From IMG/VR virus record IMGVR_UViG_2778261396_000002: a stretch of 29,073 nucleotides of DNA. One strand, 5' to 3'. This DNA comes from a virus. Lineage: Duplodnaviria > Heunggongvirae > Uroviricota > Caudoviricetes. Shown piece by piece: positions 11,686 to 27,662 of the stretch; the stretch's first letter is position 1, and each line of letters starts with the position of its first letter. The notes beneath the pieces are model-generated. The model was not told the DNA's origin. It worked only from the letters and a program-made list of their open reading frames with translations, and searched no databases. Both the position numbers and the translations under genes were made by a program.

Positions 11686-11738
11686 GGGCGGCAGAGCAGT
11701 CACGGAGTAAAACTGATACCGCCAAACGTCACCAGAAA
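11686..11738 (-). ncRNA. dicF: DicF small RNA (53 nt; ftsZ-targeting)
   Basis: Reverse complement reads TTTCTGGTGACGTTTGGCGGTATCAGTTTTACTCCGTGACTGCTCTGCCGCCC followed by T-run, matching recalled DicF; lies between ydfC and dicB. Confidence 0.85.
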
Positions 11739-14988: not shown

Positions 14989-15411
14989 GTGGCAAAAGTT
15001 TTTACACAAGAAGAGCGGGAAAAAATTAAATGGCAGGTGGTGGAACTCGTGCGCCAGAGCGGCCGTGAGACGTTACGGCAACTGGAAGCTAAAACAGGTG
15101 CGACTAGATATCTGATGAGCGTTCTTGCCAGAGAGCTGGTAGCCAGTGGCGATGTATACAACTCCGGCTACGGGTTATTCCCCTCTGAACAGGCGCGTAA
15201 GGACTGGCAAAACGCCCGCAAAAAACTCTCGAGGGCAAAGGTGAAGAAACCTGCTGTGGTTGATCCGGACCTTATCTGGTCATCACCTGACGGAGAAATA
15301 CGTCGCTACGACAGTCGCCTAAACATAATCTGTCGCGAGTGCCGGAAGAGCGAAGTTATGCAGCGCATACTGGCTTTCTATCAGGGTAATTTTCAGGACG
15401 TGGCGCAGTGA
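14989..15411 (+). CDS. Hypothetical prophage protein (140 aa, GTG start)
   Basis: ORF with AGGGGGA SD 4-5 nt upstream of GTG; stop overlaps next gene start (GTGA). Confidence 0.45.
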   Translation: MAKVFTQEEREKIKWQVVELVRQSGRETLRQLEAKTGATRYLMSVLARELVASGDVYNSGYGLFPSEQARKDWQNARKKLSRAKVKKPAVVDPDLIWSSPDGEIRRYDSRLNIICRECRKSEVMQRILAFYQGNFQDVAQ

Positions 15412-15854
15412 GTGCACCGGCAACCATTCTTGATATGTGCTGTGGCAGCCGCATGTTCTGGTTCGATAAGTCTGACGAACGGGCGATATTCAGCGATATC
15501 AGAAAAGAAGGATACACATTACGCAATGGGAGACGCTTGATTATCAGCCCTGACATTATCGCAGATTTTCGTGCATTATCATTTGCAGACGCATCTTTTT
15601 CGATGGTTGTATTAGACCCTCCGCATCTTGAGAGTGTTGGTGATAACGCCTGGATGGGAAAGAAATATGGACGGCTGAATAAAGATGCCTGGCGTGATGA
15701 TTCGCGACAGAGATTTAAAGAAGCCTTTCGGGTGTTGAGGCCGCACGGCGTTCTGATTTTTTAATGGAATGAAACGCAAATACCGGTAAGCCAGATTCTG
15801 GCACTGACAGACAGAAAACCTGTTATCTGTCAACGAACAGGGAAAAAACGATAA
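15408..15854 (+). pseudogene. SAM-dependent (gamma-class-like amino-) methyltransferase remnant with in-frame TAA at 15762-15764
   Basis: Motif I-like LDMCCGSRMF and motif IV-like VVLDPPH; same frame continues after the TAA for 29 more codons; total still short for a DNA MTase. Confidence 0.4.
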
Positions 15855-16026
15855 AACCCACTGGATTATTTTTATGAAAGAGGCATCCAGTGAGTAGATT
15901 CGTAAGGCTACAGATACGTATATCTGAATAATTAAATTCAGTTCTGTAAATAAAATTTAATCCTTAACCGGATGGATTTCTGCACCCTCAGAACATCAGG
16001 AGGCCGCCCGAAAGGGCGGTAGTGAA

Positions 16027-16137
16027 ATGCGAAAGTTCAAAATTATTATTGAAACGGGAATAGCTGGTGGAGATTTTGAGGATGTATTCGAAGTGGACGA
16101 TGACGCAACACCTGAGGAAATTCATGACGGAGCATAA
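16027..16137 (+). CDS. Small acidic ORF (36 aa) preceded by AGGAGG and a GAAA-tetraloop hairpin
   Basis: ATG 16027 … MRKFKIIIETGIAGGDFEDVFEVDDDATPEEIHDGA*; below ORF-track size cutoff; manual translation. Confidence 0.3.
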   Translation: MRKFKIIIETGIAGGDFEDVFEVDDDATPEEIHDGA

Positions 16138-16186
16138 GAAATTTTCTTTAACTACTGCAATTACTCATACCACGAAATAAAAGACG

Positions 16187-16378
16187 ATGAGGAAGAACAA
16201 AGTGGCTGATTTTTGTTCAGCTAAATATAACATCAGTTTTGAAGAGCGGGATGAACTATTAATGGACTATGGTGAGTTACGCGGTGGAAGTGCTGCTGAT
16301 GTCGAATCCTAGCGTGATGACTATGAAGCGGGAAAAACTCCGGTCGAAGCATATTGTGATGAGTGGGGCGATGAATGA
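16187..16378 (+). pseudogene. Small ORF (63 codons) with in-frame amber TAG at 16310-16312
   Basis: MRKNKVADFCSAKYNISFEERDELLMDYGELRGGSAADVES*RDDYEAGKTPVEAYCDEWGDE*; stop overlaps next ORF start (ATGA). Confidence 0.35.
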
Positions 16379-16662
16379 GCGAGATTAATTATCAGGAAGG
16401 GCATGAAACGGCGGGGCAAGCAAAACCAGTGGCATGGCGATATCGCTACGTGAAAAAAGGCGTTACGGACTTTCAGGGGAAGTAGTGGTCTGGTGACTGG
16501 AAATATGTACCGAAAAAAGAGGATTGTAACGACAGGCCGAACTATCAAATTCAGGCCTTATTCACTGCCTCACCAGTCCCAGTTACATCAGAAGAACTGG
16601 TTAAAGCTGTGCACTTTTATGAACAACTAAAACGCGAAAATCCACCAACATCCGGCAACTAG
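16375..16662 (+). pseudogene. Small ORF (95 codons) with in-frame amber TAG at 16483-16485
   Basis: MSEINYQEGHETAGQAKPVAWRYRYVKKGVTDFQGK*WSGDWKYVPKKEDCNDRPNYQIQALFTASPVPVTSEELVKAVHFYEQLKRENPPTSGN*. Confidence 0.35.
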
Positions 16663-16916
16663 ATTAATGGATTAACTATGTCGGTTAAACGACCAGCCAA
16701 CTGAAAAAGCGGAAACCTGATTACAGGTTGCCAGATAAGGCAATGAGCTACCTGGCGCGGAACGGACTGATAAGTATGGGGAATGTTTTACGATGAACCT
16801 TTAGACTAAAGAGTTTGTAACGCTATGTAAGTGATTTTTTCTGGTTTAGATATTTATATGTCCGGCCAAATTGAGGTGTGTTTAAATGTAATTGCACATT
16901 GATTGTAGGAGGAATA

Positions 16917-17096
16917 ATGAAAAACGCATTGCAGTTTTTGTTTGTTGCGTTCTGGTTGTTCGCATCATGTATGCCCATCATCTTCACAGCAAGGTATATG
17001 GAAAAAGTTGATGTTTTGATATTAATATTTGGATATATAAATGCCCTTTTTTTAGGGGTGTTCATGGCGGTCATGTGCATTGAATACTGGCGGTAA
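16917..17096 (+). CDS. Small two-TM membrane protein (59 aa)
   Basis: AGGAGG SD at 16907-16912 then ATG 16917: MKNALQFLFVAFWLFASCMPIIFTARYMEKVDVLILIFGYINALFLGVFMAVMCIEYWR. Confidence 0.45.
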   Translation: MKNALQFLFVAFWLFASCMPIIFTARYMEKVDVLILIFGYINALFLGVFMAVMCIEYWR

Positions 17097-17430
17097 ATAC
17101 AGCGAACTCCATTGGTTTAGTTGGATATTTACTGTGCTGGACAAAAACGGTTTGCGGGGAAATCTTAGTTAAGTAGAATGACTGCGGGTGCTTGAGGCTA
17201 TCTGCCTCGGGCATGGACACCAACGGCAGATAGAGAAAAGCCCCAGTTAACATTACGCGTCCTGCAAGACGCTTAACATTAATCTGAGGCCAATTTCATG
17301 CTAGACACATGTAGGTTAGCCTCTTACGTGCCGAAAGGCACGGAGAAGCAGGCTATTGTTAACACCAAGCTGTAATGTCCCCTTTGAACCATTCTAAAAT
17401 GTCCCCAGACAATTCTCTGGGGGATTTTTC

Positions 17431-18744
17431 ATGATCAAAGAGACTGTTACGATGAGTCATAAGGAACTCCACCGACTTCAGATTATTCAGGAACAAGCTG
17501 CGGCACGCATTGGCATTTCTATTCGGCAGGTTAAACGTCTGGTGCAACGGTATAGAAATGAAGGGCCTTCTGGTCTGGTTTCCCACCGACGTGGAAAGCG
17601 TCCTAATAATTCCTTTTCTACTGAATTCAGAGCAACAGTAATTTCACTCCTCAAAGGCCGTTACGCTGATTTTGGACCTACGTTTGCGTGCGAAAAATTG
17701 CGCGAGATACACGGTTTATCTTTATCCGTTGAAACTCTCAGAAAGTGGATGATAGAAGAGGGGTTATGGCGTGAACGCCGTCGTAAAATTGCCCGTATAT
17801 ATCAACGCCGCATGCGACGACCATCTTACGGTGAACTGATCCAGATTGATGGCTCACCTCATGACTGGTTTGAAAATCGAGGCCCCAGATGTACACTGAT
17901 CGTTTTCATTGATGATGCCACCAGTGCGTTGATGGCGTTGCGTTTTGTGCCTGCTGAAACAACCCGGGCTTACATGGAAACCCTCCGGGGTTACCTTAAT
18001 GATCATGGCGTACCGCTCGCTCTCTACTCTGATAGACACAGTATATTCAGGGTAAATAACCCAGAGCGGGAAGGTGAGCTGACCCAGTTCACTCGTGCGA
18101 TAAAGACACTGGGCATCGAGCCAATCCATGCCAACAGCCCGCAGGCAAAAGGGCGGGTAGAGCGCGCCAATCAGACACTACAGGACAGGCTGGTCAAAGA
18201 AATGCGGCTTCAGAATATCAGTGATATTGAAACAGCAAATGCATGGTTGCCGACCTTTATTGAAGCCTATAACAACCGGTTCGCTACGTCGCCTCGTACT
18301 ACTGATAATGCTCATCTTGATGTGCACCATTCTGAAGAGGAACTGGGTTATATCTTCAGCCTACAGGCGAAGCGCGTTCTGTCTAAAAATCTCACTTTCC
18401 AGTACAAAAGCAGTGCGTTTCAGGTACGCAGTGAGGGCCGGGGATATCGACTTAGGCATTCGGTTGTTACTGTATGCGAGAACTTTGACGGTGAAATTAA
18501 CGTTCTGTATGACGGGAAAGCGCTGGGCTGGGAAAAGTATGTTGATGGCCCGGAGCCTATACCACTGGATGATGAAAAGAGTGTCCATGAACGAGTGGAT
18601 AATGCCCGTATTGATTTACGCTCAAAATACTATGTTAAACCTAAAGCTGACCATCCCTGGCTTACGCGCCGAACGCAAAGTCATCAGCAAGTTAAGCCCC
18701 CGAAGTTACCTAAAAAGAAGCCTGATCCCGATAAAAAAGATTGA
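17431..18744 (+). CDS. DDE transposase, integrase-core (rve) type with N-terminal HTH; ISNCY(IS1202/ISPlu15-group)- or IS481-like (437 aa)
   Basis: ORF translation: HTH (GISIRQVKRLVQRY), DDE-type core (…IQIDGSPHDW…ALYSDRHSIF…ANSPQAKGRVERANQTLQ…); family from memory. Confidence 0.8.
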   Translation: MIKETVTMSHKELHRLQIIQEQAAARIGISIRQVKRLVQRYRNEGPSGLVSHRRGKRPNNSFSTEFRATVISLLKGRYADFGPTFACEKLREIHGLSLSVETLRKWMIEEGLWRERRRKIARIYQRRMRRPSYGELIQIDGSPHDWFENRGPRCTLIVFIDDATSALMALRFVPAETTRAYMETLRGYLNDHGVPLALYSDRHSIFRVNNPEREGELTQFTRAIKTLGIEPIHANSPQAKGRVERANQTLQDRLVKEMRLQNISDIETANAWLPTFIEAYNNRFATSPRTTDNAHLDVHHSEEELGYIFSLQAKRVLSKNLTFQYKSSAFQVRSEGRGYRLRHSVVTVCENFDGEINVLYDGKALGWEKYVDGPEPIPLDDEKSVHERVDNARIDLRSKYYVKPKADHPWLTRRTQSHQQVKPPKLPKKKPDPDKKD

Positions 18745-20572: not shown

Positions 20573-20643
20573 ACCAAAGCATGACATCTCTGTTTCGCAC
20601 CGAAGGTGACACTTCTGCTTTGCGTTGACAGGAGAAGCAGGCT

Positions 20644-20799
20644 ATGAAGCAGCAAAAGGCGATGTTAATCGCCCTGATCGTCATCTGTTTAACCGTCATA
20701 GTGACGGCACTGGTAACGAGGAAAGACCTCTGCGAGGTACGAATCCGAACCGGCCAGACGGAGGTCGCTGTCTTCACAGCTTACGAACCTGAGGAGTAA
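20644..20799 (+). CDS. hokD: Hok-family type I toxin HokD/RelF (51 aa)
   Basis: Manual translation MKQQKAMLIALIVICLTVIVTALVTRKDLCEVRIRTGQTEVAVFTAYEPEE*. Confidence 0.9.
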   Translation: MKQQKAMLIALIVICLTVIVTALVTRKDLCEVRIRTGQTEVAVFTAYEPEE

Positions 20800-20867
20800 G
20801 AGACCCGGCGGGGGAGAAATCCCTCGCCACCTCTGATGTGGCAGGCATCCTCAACGCACCCGCACTT

Positions 20868-20898
20868 AACCCGCTTCGGCGGGTTTTTGTTTTTATTT
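20868..20898 (+). terminator. Rho-independent terminator after hokD
   Basis: ACCCGC-TTCG-GCGGGT hairpin followed by TTTTTGTTTTTATTTT. Confidence 0.7.
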
Positions 20899-24063: not shown

Positions 24064-24363
24064 AAAAATTCCTTAATACTGATAACTTGGCGCACTATAC
24101 ACACGTTCCTGAAGAAAGCTATAGTTTTTTGATGGGGTTGAAGATGGCTGGATGTCTAAAATAAACATTGCTTCATATGTTCAACTATGCGTTAATGATT
24201 GCGTCGGTTTGAAGAACAGACGATATACGAAGTAGTTTACTAAAGCAGTTCTCATTTCAGGTGTTATTCACTTATTCCTTCTTTGAGTCTCTCCAATTAA
24301 GTACGAAGTCGTTTCTGTTATGCAAACCATTTATGCCGAAAGGCTCAAGTTAAGGAATGTAGA

Positions 24364-24579
24364 ATGTCAAATAAAATGACTGGTTTAGTAAAATGGTTTA
24401 ACGCTGATAAAGGTTTCGGCTTTATTTCTCCTGTTGATGGTAGTAAAGATGTGTTTGTGCATTTTTCTGCGATTCAGAATGATAATTATCGAACCTTATT
24501 TGAAGGTCAAAAGGTTACCTTCTCTATAGAGAGTGGTCCTAAAGGTCCTGCAGCAGCAAATGTCATCATTACTGATTAA
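24364..24579 (+). CDS. cspB: Cold-shock protein CspB (71 aa)
   Basis: ORF translation [71 protein letters not shown]. Confidence 0.93.
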
Positions 24580-24861
24580 AATTCATCGCTCGTCTGTATA
24601 CGATAACGAAGAAGGCTGATGCCTGAGTAGAGATACGGACAGAGTAGTGAATATTGGATCTCTTTAATAAAAAGTAAGGAGGTCCAATACATGAAACAAT
24701 GGCTAGCATATTTGGCAAAATCTTAATCAGGAAAAGTATGCTAACCATTGTGGTGAAGTGCAGGTTTGCTGCATGAATAGTTTTACAGCAGAAGCTAACT
24801 GCTGGCATGGCAAAACAAAGTGCGTAAGTGGATGACTCCCACAAAAAGCACCACAATCTCA

Positions 24862-26888: not shown

Positions 26889-27250
26889 GGTAATATTAAA
26901 TCGGAACATTTACATCGCGGAATGTAAAATTTAAATAAAAAGGACTCTTCCATGAGCCAAAATTCCTGAAATCTTAAGGGTAAGATAAAAGGTCTTAATC
27001 AGAATGACACGTTTTATTAATAAATAAAGCTATTCTTTCATTGCTGTGTTTTTCTTTACAAAAGTAATCCTTGCTATGGGTGGTTAATCATGCGTTAATG
27101 GTGTTCTGGTTTGTTACAAATTTATCTGAAGCAGTCATTGTTATAATTTTATTATTTGTACCTCTTGAGATTTCCTTGTTGGTTTTTCTCTCTGATATTT
27201 TTTTTCGGACCATTCTGCCCAAGGGCTAATTTCTTCAAAAGGTAATAATT

Positions 27251-27463
27251 ATGTCTAACAAAATGACTGGTTTAGTGAAATGGTTTAACCCTGAAAAAGG
27301 TTTTGGTTTCATCACGCCGAAAGATGGCAGCAAAGATGTGTTTGTCCATTTCTCAGCAATTCAGAGCAACGATTTCAAAACATTAACTGAGAATCAGGAA
27401 GTTGAATTTGGTATTGAGAACGGACCTAAAGGTCCTGCCGCTGTTCATGTAGTGGCGCTTTGA
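27251..27463 (+). CDS. cspI: Cold-shock protein CspI (70 aa)
   Basis: ORF translation [70 protein letters not shown]. Confidence 0.93.
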
Positions 27464-27662
27464 GGTAGACAATATTACAAACCATATTCACTTTAGATGC
27501 CCGTGTTGTCATGGTTCCCAGTATAGAACATCATCTTTTGATGTTTCTGACATGAATCCTTTCGGGGCAAAATGTATCTTTTGTAAATCAATGATGATTA
27601 CATTTGATAATATTTCACAATACTTAAATGCCAGCCGTCTGTCGTTGGATTTAAAAAAGTGA
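27453..27662 (+). pseudogene. Zinc-ribbon ORF (paralog of 24943-25113) lacking canonical start; open frame begins inside cspI 3' end
   Basis: Frame open from TAG at 27450-27452: …HFRCPCCHGSQYRTSSFDVSDMNPFGAKCIFCKSMMITFDNISQYLNASRLSLDLKK*; first in-frame ATG (27552) lies after first Cys pair. Confidence 0.35.

What the first reader, a model, noticed from the sequence alone, without database searches (positions are those of the whole stretch)
15998..16662. Cluster of small, translationally coupled ORFs in which two carry in-frame amber codons and three end with TAG
A 63-codon ORF (16187-16378) and the overlapping 95-codon ORF (16375-16662, ATGA junction) keep a clean protein-like frame but are each interrupted by a single TAG (16310, 16483). 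Adjacent ORFs also terminate with TAG, which is the rarest stop in E. coli. These may be simple nonsense pseudogenes in a decaying prophage. The clustering of amber codons without frameshifts is nonetheless unusual and would also fit genes once expressed in an amber-suppressing background. The first ORF (16027) is preceded by AGGAGG plus a perfect CCGCCC-GAAA-GGGCGG hairpin between SD and ATG.
Basis: seen in the sequence. Interest (0 to 1): 0.6.

Follow-up and report, generated by a model that had tools for sequence, protein, structure and literature searches.

The report
Nonsense-mutated pseudogenes in cryptic prophage Qin
The in-frame amber codons are real, but they are ordinary nonsense mutations in a row of dead genes of unknown function inside the old cryptic prophage Qin of E. 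coli, and nothing points to suppression or recoding.

Summary
The window is the cryptic lambdoid prophage Qin in a non-K-12 E. coli. Positions 15408-16796 hold four consecutive decayed early genes:
- a small SAM methyltransferase;
- a DUF7167 gene, 16027-16209;
- a 58-codon gene, 16202-16378;
- a gene that was once 171 codons, 16375-16796.

The ORF ends were misread:
- The first ORF stops at a premature TAA (16135), not a TAG.
- The "terminal" TAG at 16660 is also premature.
- ORF3 also carries a 90-nt deletion and a 4-nt frameshift deletion.

In intact relatives these sites read AAA, TGG, CAG and CAG, each one step from a stop. On the window's branch, ORF1 and ORF2 carry 19 private substitutions: 5 synonymous, 12 missense, 2 nonsense. 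That matches neutral drift. A simulation gives P(at least 2 stops) = 0.22 and P(at least 3 of 4 stops being TAG) = 0.11.

About 500 of 5,426 complete E. coli genomes carry the same stops, and RefSeq already marks two of the genes as pseudogenes. The window has no tRNA gene. supE-type tRNA was seen only in K-12 laboratory lineages, whose Qin lacks this region.

The conserved SD-hairpin-AUG resembles the T4 gene 38/25 split ribosome-binding site. That is a minor, untested side point.

The parts
15408..15897 (+). Small class I SAM-dependent methyltransferase pseudogene. It has an in-frame TAA at 15762-15764 (AAA Lys in intact homologues) and a +1 G at 15840-15842.
   Evidence: The intact homologues L049 and L126 read GVLIFKWNETQ...GKNDKTHWIIF. 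PGAP calls it a pseudogene in IAI1. Pfam gives weak Methyltransf_11/25 matches.
15998..16003 (+). Shine-Dalgarno-like AGGAGG, 23 nt upstream of the ORF1 ATG.
   Evidence: It was held fixed in the search pattern, so its conservation among the loci is not an independent observation.
16004..16019 (+). Perfect 6-bp G+C hairpin with a GAAA tetraloop between the SD and the ATG. It leaves 7 nt before the ATG.
   Evidence: The hairpin alone folds at -12.4 kcal/mol; the surrounding region is folded. It is conserved in about 118 viral contigs. Most variants are C-to-U changes that keep a U-G pair, one is an A-U compensation, and the loop change GAAA to GGCA stays GNRA. Covariation is not significant.
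16027..16209 (+). DUF7167 (phrog_1997) pseudogene of 60 codons, with a premature TAA at 16135-16137 (AAA Lys in intact alleles).
   Evidence: PGAP annotates 'DUF7167 family protein, internal stop'. The exact 61-mer around the stop occurs in 383 genomes.
16202..16378 (+). Pseudogene of a 58-codon phage gene (phrog_519, WP_000753060-like). The start changed from ATG to GTG, there are 9 missense changes, and a premature TAG lies at 16310-16312 (TGG Trp in intact alleles). PGAP does not annotate it.
   Evidence: The exact TAG 61-mer is in 496 of 5,426 genomes. This allele with TGG is in 0 genomes.
16375..16796 (+). Pseudogene of a 171-codon phage gene (phrog_660, WP_001289996-like). It has TAG at 16483-16485 (CAG Gln in the nearest intact allele), a 90-nt in-frame deletion near 16636-16650, TAG at 16660-16662 (CAG Gln), a 4-nt deletion near 16694, and the ancestral TGA at 16794-16796.
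   Evidence: PGAP annotates 'frameshifted; internal stop'. The 61-mer around TAG 16483 is exact in 880 genomes, and that around TAG 16660 in 463.
16453..16458 (+). A6 run in ORF3. Sister pseudogene alleles have A8 (+2 frameshift) or lose the following G (-1).

Best explanation
The segment is a block of four adjacent early-region accessory genes of the cryptic lambdoid prophage Qin: a methyltransferase, a DUF7167 gene, a 58-codon gene and a 171-codon gene.

These genes stopped being selected and are drifting as pseudogenes. Single-base changes turned sense codons that lie one step from a stop into TAA or TAG:
- AAA to TAA, twice.
- TGG to TAG, once.
- CAG to TAG, twice.

Small indels and a 90-nt repeat-mediated deletion accumulated alongside. 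The frames still look 'clean' only because the genes are short and the decay is recent relative to their length.

The ORF3 pseudogene allele is older. Recombination has spread it among several lambdoid prophage backgrounds. The ORF1 and ORF2 stops are confined to the Qin-type lineage, which about 9% of complete E. coli genomes carry.

Shown here:
- The stops and the ancestral codons.
- The neutral substitution pattern.
- The population distribution.

Inferred:
- Relaxed selection is the cause.
- Recombination is the route by which the ORF3 allele spread.
For: Context:
- The window carries dicB, dicF, dicC, relBE, hokD, cspB/F/I, essD and rrrQ next to rspB. That is Qin.
- An ISNCY transposase remnant lies just downstream.
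- PGAP flags pseudogenes at 16027-16209 and 16375-16796 in identical genomes.

Intact homologues:
- All three ORFs are intact in strain H2.
- 88 viral-contig loci, with 40 distinct alleles, have ORF1 and ORF2 intact.
- Intact ORF3 occurs in 171-aa and 119-aa classes.

Ancestral codons are AAA, TGG, CAG and CAG.

Neutral evolution:
- The window's branch has 19 private substitutions in 352 nt: 5 synonymous, 12 missense, 2 nonsense. The synonymous fraction is 0.26, against about 0.21-0.22 expected under neutrality.
- Intact alleles segregate 37 synonymous, 40 missense and 0 nonsense variants.
- Simulation gives a mean of 0.89 stops, P(at least 2) = 0.22, and P(at least 3 of 4 being TAG) = 0.11.

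Further lesions:
- The ORF2 start changed from ATG to GTG.
- ORF3 has the 90-nt and 4-nt deletions.
- Sister alleles add an A6-to-A8 change, a lost G, or a 62-nt deletion.
- 8 of 26 window-type loci carry an extra indel.
- The methyltransferase gene has a TAA and a +1 G.

No suppressor:
- The window has no tRNA gene.
- supE-type glnV occurs in 155 of 5,426 genomes, and the 40 listed are all K-12 laboratory lineages.
- K-12 Qin lacks the region.
Against: - The ORF1/ORF2 allele differs from its closest intact allele at 24 of 352 sites, and no intermediates were found. That is more than in-situ drift within E. coli would easily give. Part of the branch probably predates the present host lineage, or the allele came in by recombination.
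- Flanking genes (DUF977, replication O, YdaT-like, dicC) keep intact ORFs, so decay is local rather than uniform.
- A 48.7-kb version with a full structural module is deposited as 'phage PhiR42_1'. The prophage as a whole is therefore not everywhere badly degraded.
- Expression and read-through were not measured.
Confidence: 0.93

Rival explanations
1. The genes are, or were, expressed by amber suppression or TAG recoding. A host or phage suppressor tRNA would read TAG as an amino acid, so the ORFs would still be functional.
For: - Three of the four stops in ORF1-3 are TAG.
- Two of them derive from CAG (Gln), which a supE-type suppressor would restore exactly.
- The TAG at 16483 is kept in over 1,100 genomes.
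Against: - Three TAGs among four stops is within chance, P = 0.11.
- CAG-to-TAG and TGG-to-TAG are simply the two transition routes to TAG.
- ORF1 and the methyltransferase gene carry TAA, which an amber suppressor does not read.
- ORF3 is also frameshifted downstream, and sister alleles are frameshifted upstream of the TAG.
- Substitutions on the branch are neutral, including W16R, H17D and the changed start codon.
- The window has no tRNA gene.
- Intact prophage genes use TAG as a stop at the usual low rate, 2 of 39.
- supE-type glnV was seen only in K-12 laboratory lineages.
Confidence: 0.02
2. The inactivation was selected, not neutral. The methyltransferase and ORF1-3 block would be harmful to the host (toxic early genes), and knock-outs would have been fixed as part of prophage domestication.
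For: - Four adjacent genes are all knocked out while the flanking regulatory and replication ORFs stay open.
- ORF3 is inactivated in several independent ways in different prophage backgrounds.
- Other alleles of ORF1 carry independent stops, Y46* and Q58*.
Against: - The number of stops fits neutral expectation.
- There is no evidence of toxicity.
- Many prophages and phages keep all three genes intact (88 loci).
- The shared TAG at 16483 indicates one old event that spread, not repeated selection.
Confidence: 0.05

Closest known systems
Cryptic prophage Qin (Kim) of E. coli K-12 and its pseudogenes
   Same: Same chromosomal element next to rspB, with the same gene set: dicB, dicF, dicC, ydfA-D, relBE-hokD, cspB/F/I, essD, rrrQ and ydfU/T. 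Same mode of decay by IS insertions, deletions and point mutations.
   Different: K-12 Qin has lost the whole segment. It goes from dicC to ydfX to ydfW, so these pseudogenes are not part of the K-12 reference. The window's version is the longer form found in strains such as W, IAI1, ATCC 8739 and ECOR13.
Intact DUF7167 / phrog_519 / phrog_660 gene trio of Rac-like and other lambdoid prophages (for example strain H2: WP_001224945, WP_000753060, WP_001289996)
   Same: Same order, the same overlapping junctions (an 8-nt overlap and ATGA), and the same upstream SD-hairpin. Nucleotide identity is 89-94%.
   Different: The window's copies carry TAA, TAG, TAG and TAG plus deletions. None of the three families has a known function.
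TAG-recoded phages and laboratory amber mutants grown in supE or supF hosts
   Same: In-frame TAG codons in phage genes.
   Different: There is no suppressor tRNA and TAG is not enriched across the genome. TAA stops and frameshifts occur in the same genes, and the substitution pattern is neutral.
Split translation-initiation regions of T4 genes 38 and 25 (SD-hairpin-AUG)
   Same: A strong SD lies too far from the AUG (23 nt). A stable hairpin in between would reduce the effective spacing to 7 nt. In T4 the spacing drops from 22 to 5 nt and from 27 to 11 nt (PMC3014915).
   Different: Function is untested here and covariation is not significant. The gene it serves is dead in this window.

Membership tests
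Pseudogene (nonsense or frameshift) of a conserved phage gene | Intact homologues exist with a sense codon at the stop position. | tested here: met
   The sense codons are AAA, TGG, CAG and CAG in intact alleles. 88 loci have intact ORF1 and ORF2. Intact ORF3 of 171 aa is seen.
Pseudogene (nonsense or frameshift) of a conserved phage gene | Substitution pattern on the lineage is consistent with relaxed (neutral) selection. | tested here: met
   The window's branch has 5 synonymous, 12 missense and 2 nonsense changes. Intact alleles segregate 37, 40 and 0. The neutral synonymous fraction is about 0.21-0.22.
Pseudogene (nonsense or frameshift) of a conserved phage gene | No full-length product is made. 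| not testable with these tools
   This needs proteomics or Ribo-seq in a carrier strain.
Cryptic prophage Qin | Integrated next to rspB with the dicB-dicF-dicC, relBE-hokD and cspB/F/I gene set. | tested here: met
   Annotation of the 99.8% identical UC4224 region. Rfam finds DicF and the cspA elements. The K-12 Qin feature is shown.
Amber-suppressed or TAG-recoded phage genes | A suppressor tRNA (CUA anticodon) is encoded by the element or host. | tested here: not met
   The window has no tRNA gene. supE-type glnV is in 155 of 5,426 genomes, and the 40 listed are all K-12 laboratory lineages that lack this region. Other suppressor genes and whole carrier genomes were not scanned.
Amber-suppressed or TAG-recoded phage genes | In-frame stops are TAG only, and the frames are otherwise intact and under purifying selection. 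| tested here: not met
   TAA occurs at 15762 and 16135. ORF3 has a 4-nt frameshift. The substitution pattern is neutral.
Split translation-initiation region (T4 gene 38/25 type) | The SD is more than 15 nt from the AUG, and an intervening stable hairpin restores a spacing of 5-11 nt. | tested here: met
   AGGAGG at 15998-16003, a hairpin at 16004-16019 (-12.4 kcal/mol), then 7 nt before the ATG at 16027. The T4 definition comes from PMC3014915.
Split translation-initiation region (T4 gene 38/25 type) | The hairpin is maintained by selection (covariation) and enhances translation. | tested here: inconclusive
   90.5% of cells are paired, and one pair changes from G-C to A-U, but this is no better than the shuffles. 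The effect on translation cannot be tested here.

The most novel reading that the evidence does not exclude
The AGGAGG-hairpin-7 nt-AUG arrangement upstream of the DUF7167 gene may be a functional 'split' ribosome-binding site of the T4 gene 38/25 type. It is conserved in about 118 lambdoid phage and prophage contigs. If functional, it would be a lambdoid example of structure-assisted initiation. The amber codons themselves stay ordinary under this reading.
Probability: 0.3. Interest if true: 0.25.

Novelty: already known. Interest (0 to 1): 0.08.

Why it matters
It matters little. The result removes a candidate for stop-codon recoding or suppression. It also documents that Qin, in about 9% of complete E. 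coli genomes, keeps a segment missing from K-12, with four adjacent dead genes.

Small practical points:
- PGAP leaves the ORF2 pseudogene (16202-16378) unannotated.
- PGAP calls the 118-aa methyltransferase stump an intact CDS in some genomes.
- The three ancestral gene families (DUF7167, phrog_519, phrog_660) are widespread lambdoid early genes with no known function.

Tried and rejected
- **Suppressor or recoding reading.** Rejected. The window has no tRNA gene. TAA stops and frameshifts are mixed in. TAG is used at the normal low rate as a stop. supE was found only in K-12 laboratory lineages.
- **Hidden structured RNA.** An Rfam scan of the window gives nothing in 15400-17180. The only hits are sok, DicF and the cspA elements elsewhere.
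- **Promoters and terminators.** The scan of 15400-17450 found promoter-like sites at the shuffled rate. It found 5 terminator-like sites against 1.9 ± 1.3 in shuffles. One of the five lies just upstream of the finding (15730-15753, +). Two lie inside the region on the minus strand (16221-16205 in ORF2, 16729-16714 in ORF3). None were followed up.
- **Dcm (CCWGG) deamination hot spots as the source of the TAGs.** Rejected by reading the sequence. The contexts are TCCTAGCG, AAGTAGTG and AACTAGAT, and none derives from CCAGG.
- **Mutator or DGR-like signature.** The 19 private changes are 10 transitions and 9 transversions with no base bias.
- **Window-type ORF2 allele with TGG.** 0 of 5,426 genomes carry it.
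- **Hairpin covariation.** Not significant.
- **Scan of genome contigs for the hairpin pattern.** It returned mostly chance matches, plus one Shigella flexneri locus.
- **Function of the ancestral proteins.** Pfam, NCBIfam, PHROGs and PDB sequence searches give only DUF and 'unknown function' labels.
- **Literature.** No paper mentions DUF7167.
- **Not done.** Structure prediction and the large protein searches were skipped, because the verdict does not depend on the ancestral function.

Full report
**1. What is in the sequence**

- TAG at 16310-16312 and at 16483-16485.
- The ATGA junction at 16375-16378.
- AGGAGG at 15998-16003.
- The perfect hairpin CCGCCC-GAAA-GGGCGG at 16004-16019.
- The ATG at 16027.

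The description of the ORF ends is wrong:
- The first ORF stops at TAA (16135-16137).
- The second ends with TGA.
- Only the third ends with TAG (16660-16662).

The ORF list shows the frames broken into pieces of 36-45 codons.

**2. Context**

The window is the cryptic lambdoid prophage Qin in a non-K-12 E. coli. The best complete-genome match is strain UC4224, at 99.8% identity over 23 kb. Its annotation runs as follows:
- rspAB, integrase, excisionase, a RecE-like exonuclease;
- ydfD, dicB, ydfC/B/A, dicA-like, dicC;
- YdaT-like, replication O, DUF977, methyltransferase;
- the finding;
- an ISNCY transposase remnant, ydfW, flxA, ydfV, relBE, hokD, rem, ydfU;
- Q, cspF/B, essD, rrrQ, rzpQ, cspI and onward.

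Rfam finds DicF, two cspA thermoregulators and a sok RNA.

K-12 MG1655 Qin goes straight from dicC to ydfX and ydfW, so it lacks the segment. A 48.7-kb version with a full lambda-like structural module is deposited as 'Escherichia phage PhiR42_1' from ECOR13. It is 100% identical over 15990-16800.

In identical genomes, PGAP already annotates two pseudogenes:
- 16027-16209 as 'DUF7167 family protein, internal stop'.
- 16375-16796 as 'hypothetical protein, frameshifted; internal stop'.

ORF2 is not annotated at all.

**3. Intact relatives and ancestral codons**

Strain H2 carries all three genes intact, at 60, 58 and 171 codons. A pattern scan for the SD-hairpin-ATG motif brought in 120 viral contigs. 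Of these, 88 loci (40 distinct alleles) have ORF1 and ORF2 intact. ORF3 occurs intact in 171-aa and 119-aa classes.

| Stop | Position | Ancestral codon | Source |
|---|---|---|---|
| TAA | 16135 | AAA (Lys) | |
| TAG | 16310 | TGG (Trp) | |
| TAG | 16483 | CAG (Gln) in the nearest intact allele | |
| TAG | 16660 | CAG (Gln) | |

The residue at 16483 is variable among intact alleles: CAG (Gln), CCG (Pro), ATG (Met) or CTG (Leu). The nearest intact allele reads AAG CAG TGG, one transition away from TAG.

Relative to the 171-codon allele, ORF3 of the window also has two deletions:
- A 90-nt in-frame deletion between CCACCA repeats.
- A 4-nt deletion near 16694.

The ancestral stop is the TGA at 16794-16796.

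The methyltransferase gene upstream is a fourth casualty:
- TAA at 15762, where intact homologues read ...GVLIFKWNETQ...
- An extra G at 15840-15842.

**4. Is the pattern more than chance?**

Against the 40 intact alleles, the window has 19 private substitutions in the 352 nt of ORF1 and ORF2:
- 5 are synonymous, 12 missense and 2 nonsense.
- The missense changes include the ORF2 start (ATG to GTG), W16R and H17D.

The synonymous fraction is 0.26. Random mutation of these sequences would give about 0.21-0.22. Variants among intact alleles split 37 synonymous, 40 missense and 0 nonsense.

Placing 19 random substitutions on the ancestral sequence gives:
- 0.89 stops on average.
- At least 2 stops in 22% of trials.
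- A stop in both ORFs in 13% of trials.

TAG accounts for 34% of the one-step routes to a stop in the three genes. Three or more TAGs among four stops therefore has P = 0.11.

The 39 intact CDS of the prophage end with TGA 19 times, TAA 18 times and TAG 2 times. The clustering of ambers is what neutral decay predicts.

**5. Population picture**

| 61-mer | Exact matches among 5,426 complete genomes | Other matches |
|---|---|---|
| Around TAG 16310 | 496 | 506 genomes carry this allele |
| Same allele with TGG | 0 | - |
| Around TAA 16135 | 383 | an IAI1-type variant keeps the TAA |
| Around TAG 16483 | 880 | 1,161 matched in all |
| Around TAG 16660 | 463 | 574 matched in all |

The three variant 61-mers I read around TAG 16483 all keep the TAG. 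That TAG-bearing ORF3 allele also sits in other prophage backgrounds, such as EC958 and Ecol_545, where ORF1 and ORF2 are intact. Each of those adds its own lesion:
- A6 to A8.
- Loss of a G.
- A 62-nt deletion.

Of 26 window-type loci, 8 have a further indel.

The ORF3 pseudogene is therefore old and has been carried around by recombination. The ORF1 and ORF2 stops mark the Qin-type lineage, which includes W, IAI1 and ATCC 8739.

**6. Suppression or recoding**

The evidence is against suppression or recoding:
- ARAGORN finds no tRNA in the window.
- A supE-type glnV query (anticodon CTA) is matched exactly in 155 of 5,426 genomes. The 40 listed are all K-12 laboratory lineages such as C600, DH5alpha, DH1 and J53.
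- K-12 lacks the region.
- An amber suppressor would not read the two TAA codons or repair the frameshifts.

Whole carrier genomes and other suppressor loci could not be scanned here.

**7. The hairpin**

The 16-nt hairpin folds at -12.4 kcal/mol and sits exactly between AGGAGG and the ATG. The linear spacing is 23 nt. With the hairpin formed, the effective spacing is 7 nt.

T4 genes 38 and 25 have the same layout. There the structure reduces 22 nt to 5 nt and 27 nt to 11 nt, and it enhances initiation (PMC3014915).

Among about 118 viral contigs:
- The stem is nearly always kept.
- Most changes are C-to-U in the 5' arm, which keeps a U-G pair.
- One variant shows a G-C to A-U compensation.
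- One loop change (GAAA to GGCA) stays GNRA.

Pair counts do not exceed the shuffles, however. A structural role is plausible but not shown.

**8. Ancestral function**

| Gene | Family match | Other libraries |
|---|---|---|
| ORF1 | DUF7167, phrog_1997 | - |
| ORF2 | phrog_519 | - |
| ORF3 | phrog_660 | no NCBIfam match; no informative PDB match |

No paper mentions DUF7167. All three are small, acidic early-region accessory proteins of lambdoid phages, and their function is unknown.

**9. Verdict**

These are real in-frame stops with an ordinary cause: nonsense, frameshift and deletion pseudogenes in a cryptic prophage, already partly flagged in RefSeq. Interest is low.

Noticed in passing
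window 15408-15897: The methyltransferase gene upstream of the finding is also a pseudogene. It has an in-frame TAA at 15762-15764 (AAA in intact homologues) and an extra G at 15840-15842. PGAP calls the 118-aa stump an intact CDS in UC4224 and 300709, but a pseudogene in IAI1 and ET745.
   Followed up: yes
window 16793-17356 and 20630-20886: A hok/sok locus is split in two. The uninterrupted locus of strain Ecol_545 matches window 16793-17356, which includes the sok RNA (Rfam RF01794 at 17186-17357). It then matches 20630-20886 (hokD), and 16 nt are present at both junctions. The 3.27 kb in between carries the ISNCY transposase remnant, ydfW, flxA, ydfV and relBE. This would explain why hokD (relF) sits behind relBE without its own sok and mok.
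   Followed up: partly
window 15998-16029: SD (AGGAGG), then a 16-nt GNRA hairpin, then 7 nt, then the ATG. The layout matches the T4 gene 38/25 split translation-initiation region. It is conserved across about 118 lambdoid viral contigs, but covariation is not significant.
   Followed up: partly
window 16202-16378: The ORF2 pseudogene (phrog_519 homologue) is not annotated by PGAP in any window-type genome examined. The 61-mer hits list 'none' as the feature under the match.
   Followed up: yes
window 16453-16458; L002 and L003 (EC958, Ecol_545): The A-run in ORF3 is A6 in the window, A8 in the EC958 and Ecol_545 alleles (+2 frameshift), and A6 with loss of the next G in another allele group (L012, L029). 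It is a mutable homopolymer inside an already dead gene.
   Followed up: partly
window 16918-17096 (+): A small hydrophobic ORF (MKNALQFLFVAFWLFASCMPIIF...) is preceded by GGAGG and lies between the ORF3 remnant and the sok region. The DNA is conserved in relatives. RefSeq does not annotate it on this strand, and PhiR42_1 annotates a minus-strand ORF there instead.
   Followed up: no
L161 (PV340562.1, Escherichia phage PhiR42_1): A GenBank 'complete phage genome' from ECOR13 is the Qin-type prophage. It has the same pseudogenes, the ISNCY remnant and the relBE-hokD insertion, together with a full lambda-like head and tail module. I did not establish whether it is inducible.
   Followed up: no
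window 11686-11737 (-), 24203-24595 (+), 27105-27490 (+): Rfam finds DicF sRNA and two cspA-type thermoregulator leaders, upstream of cspB and cspI. All are known Qin features.
   Followed up: no
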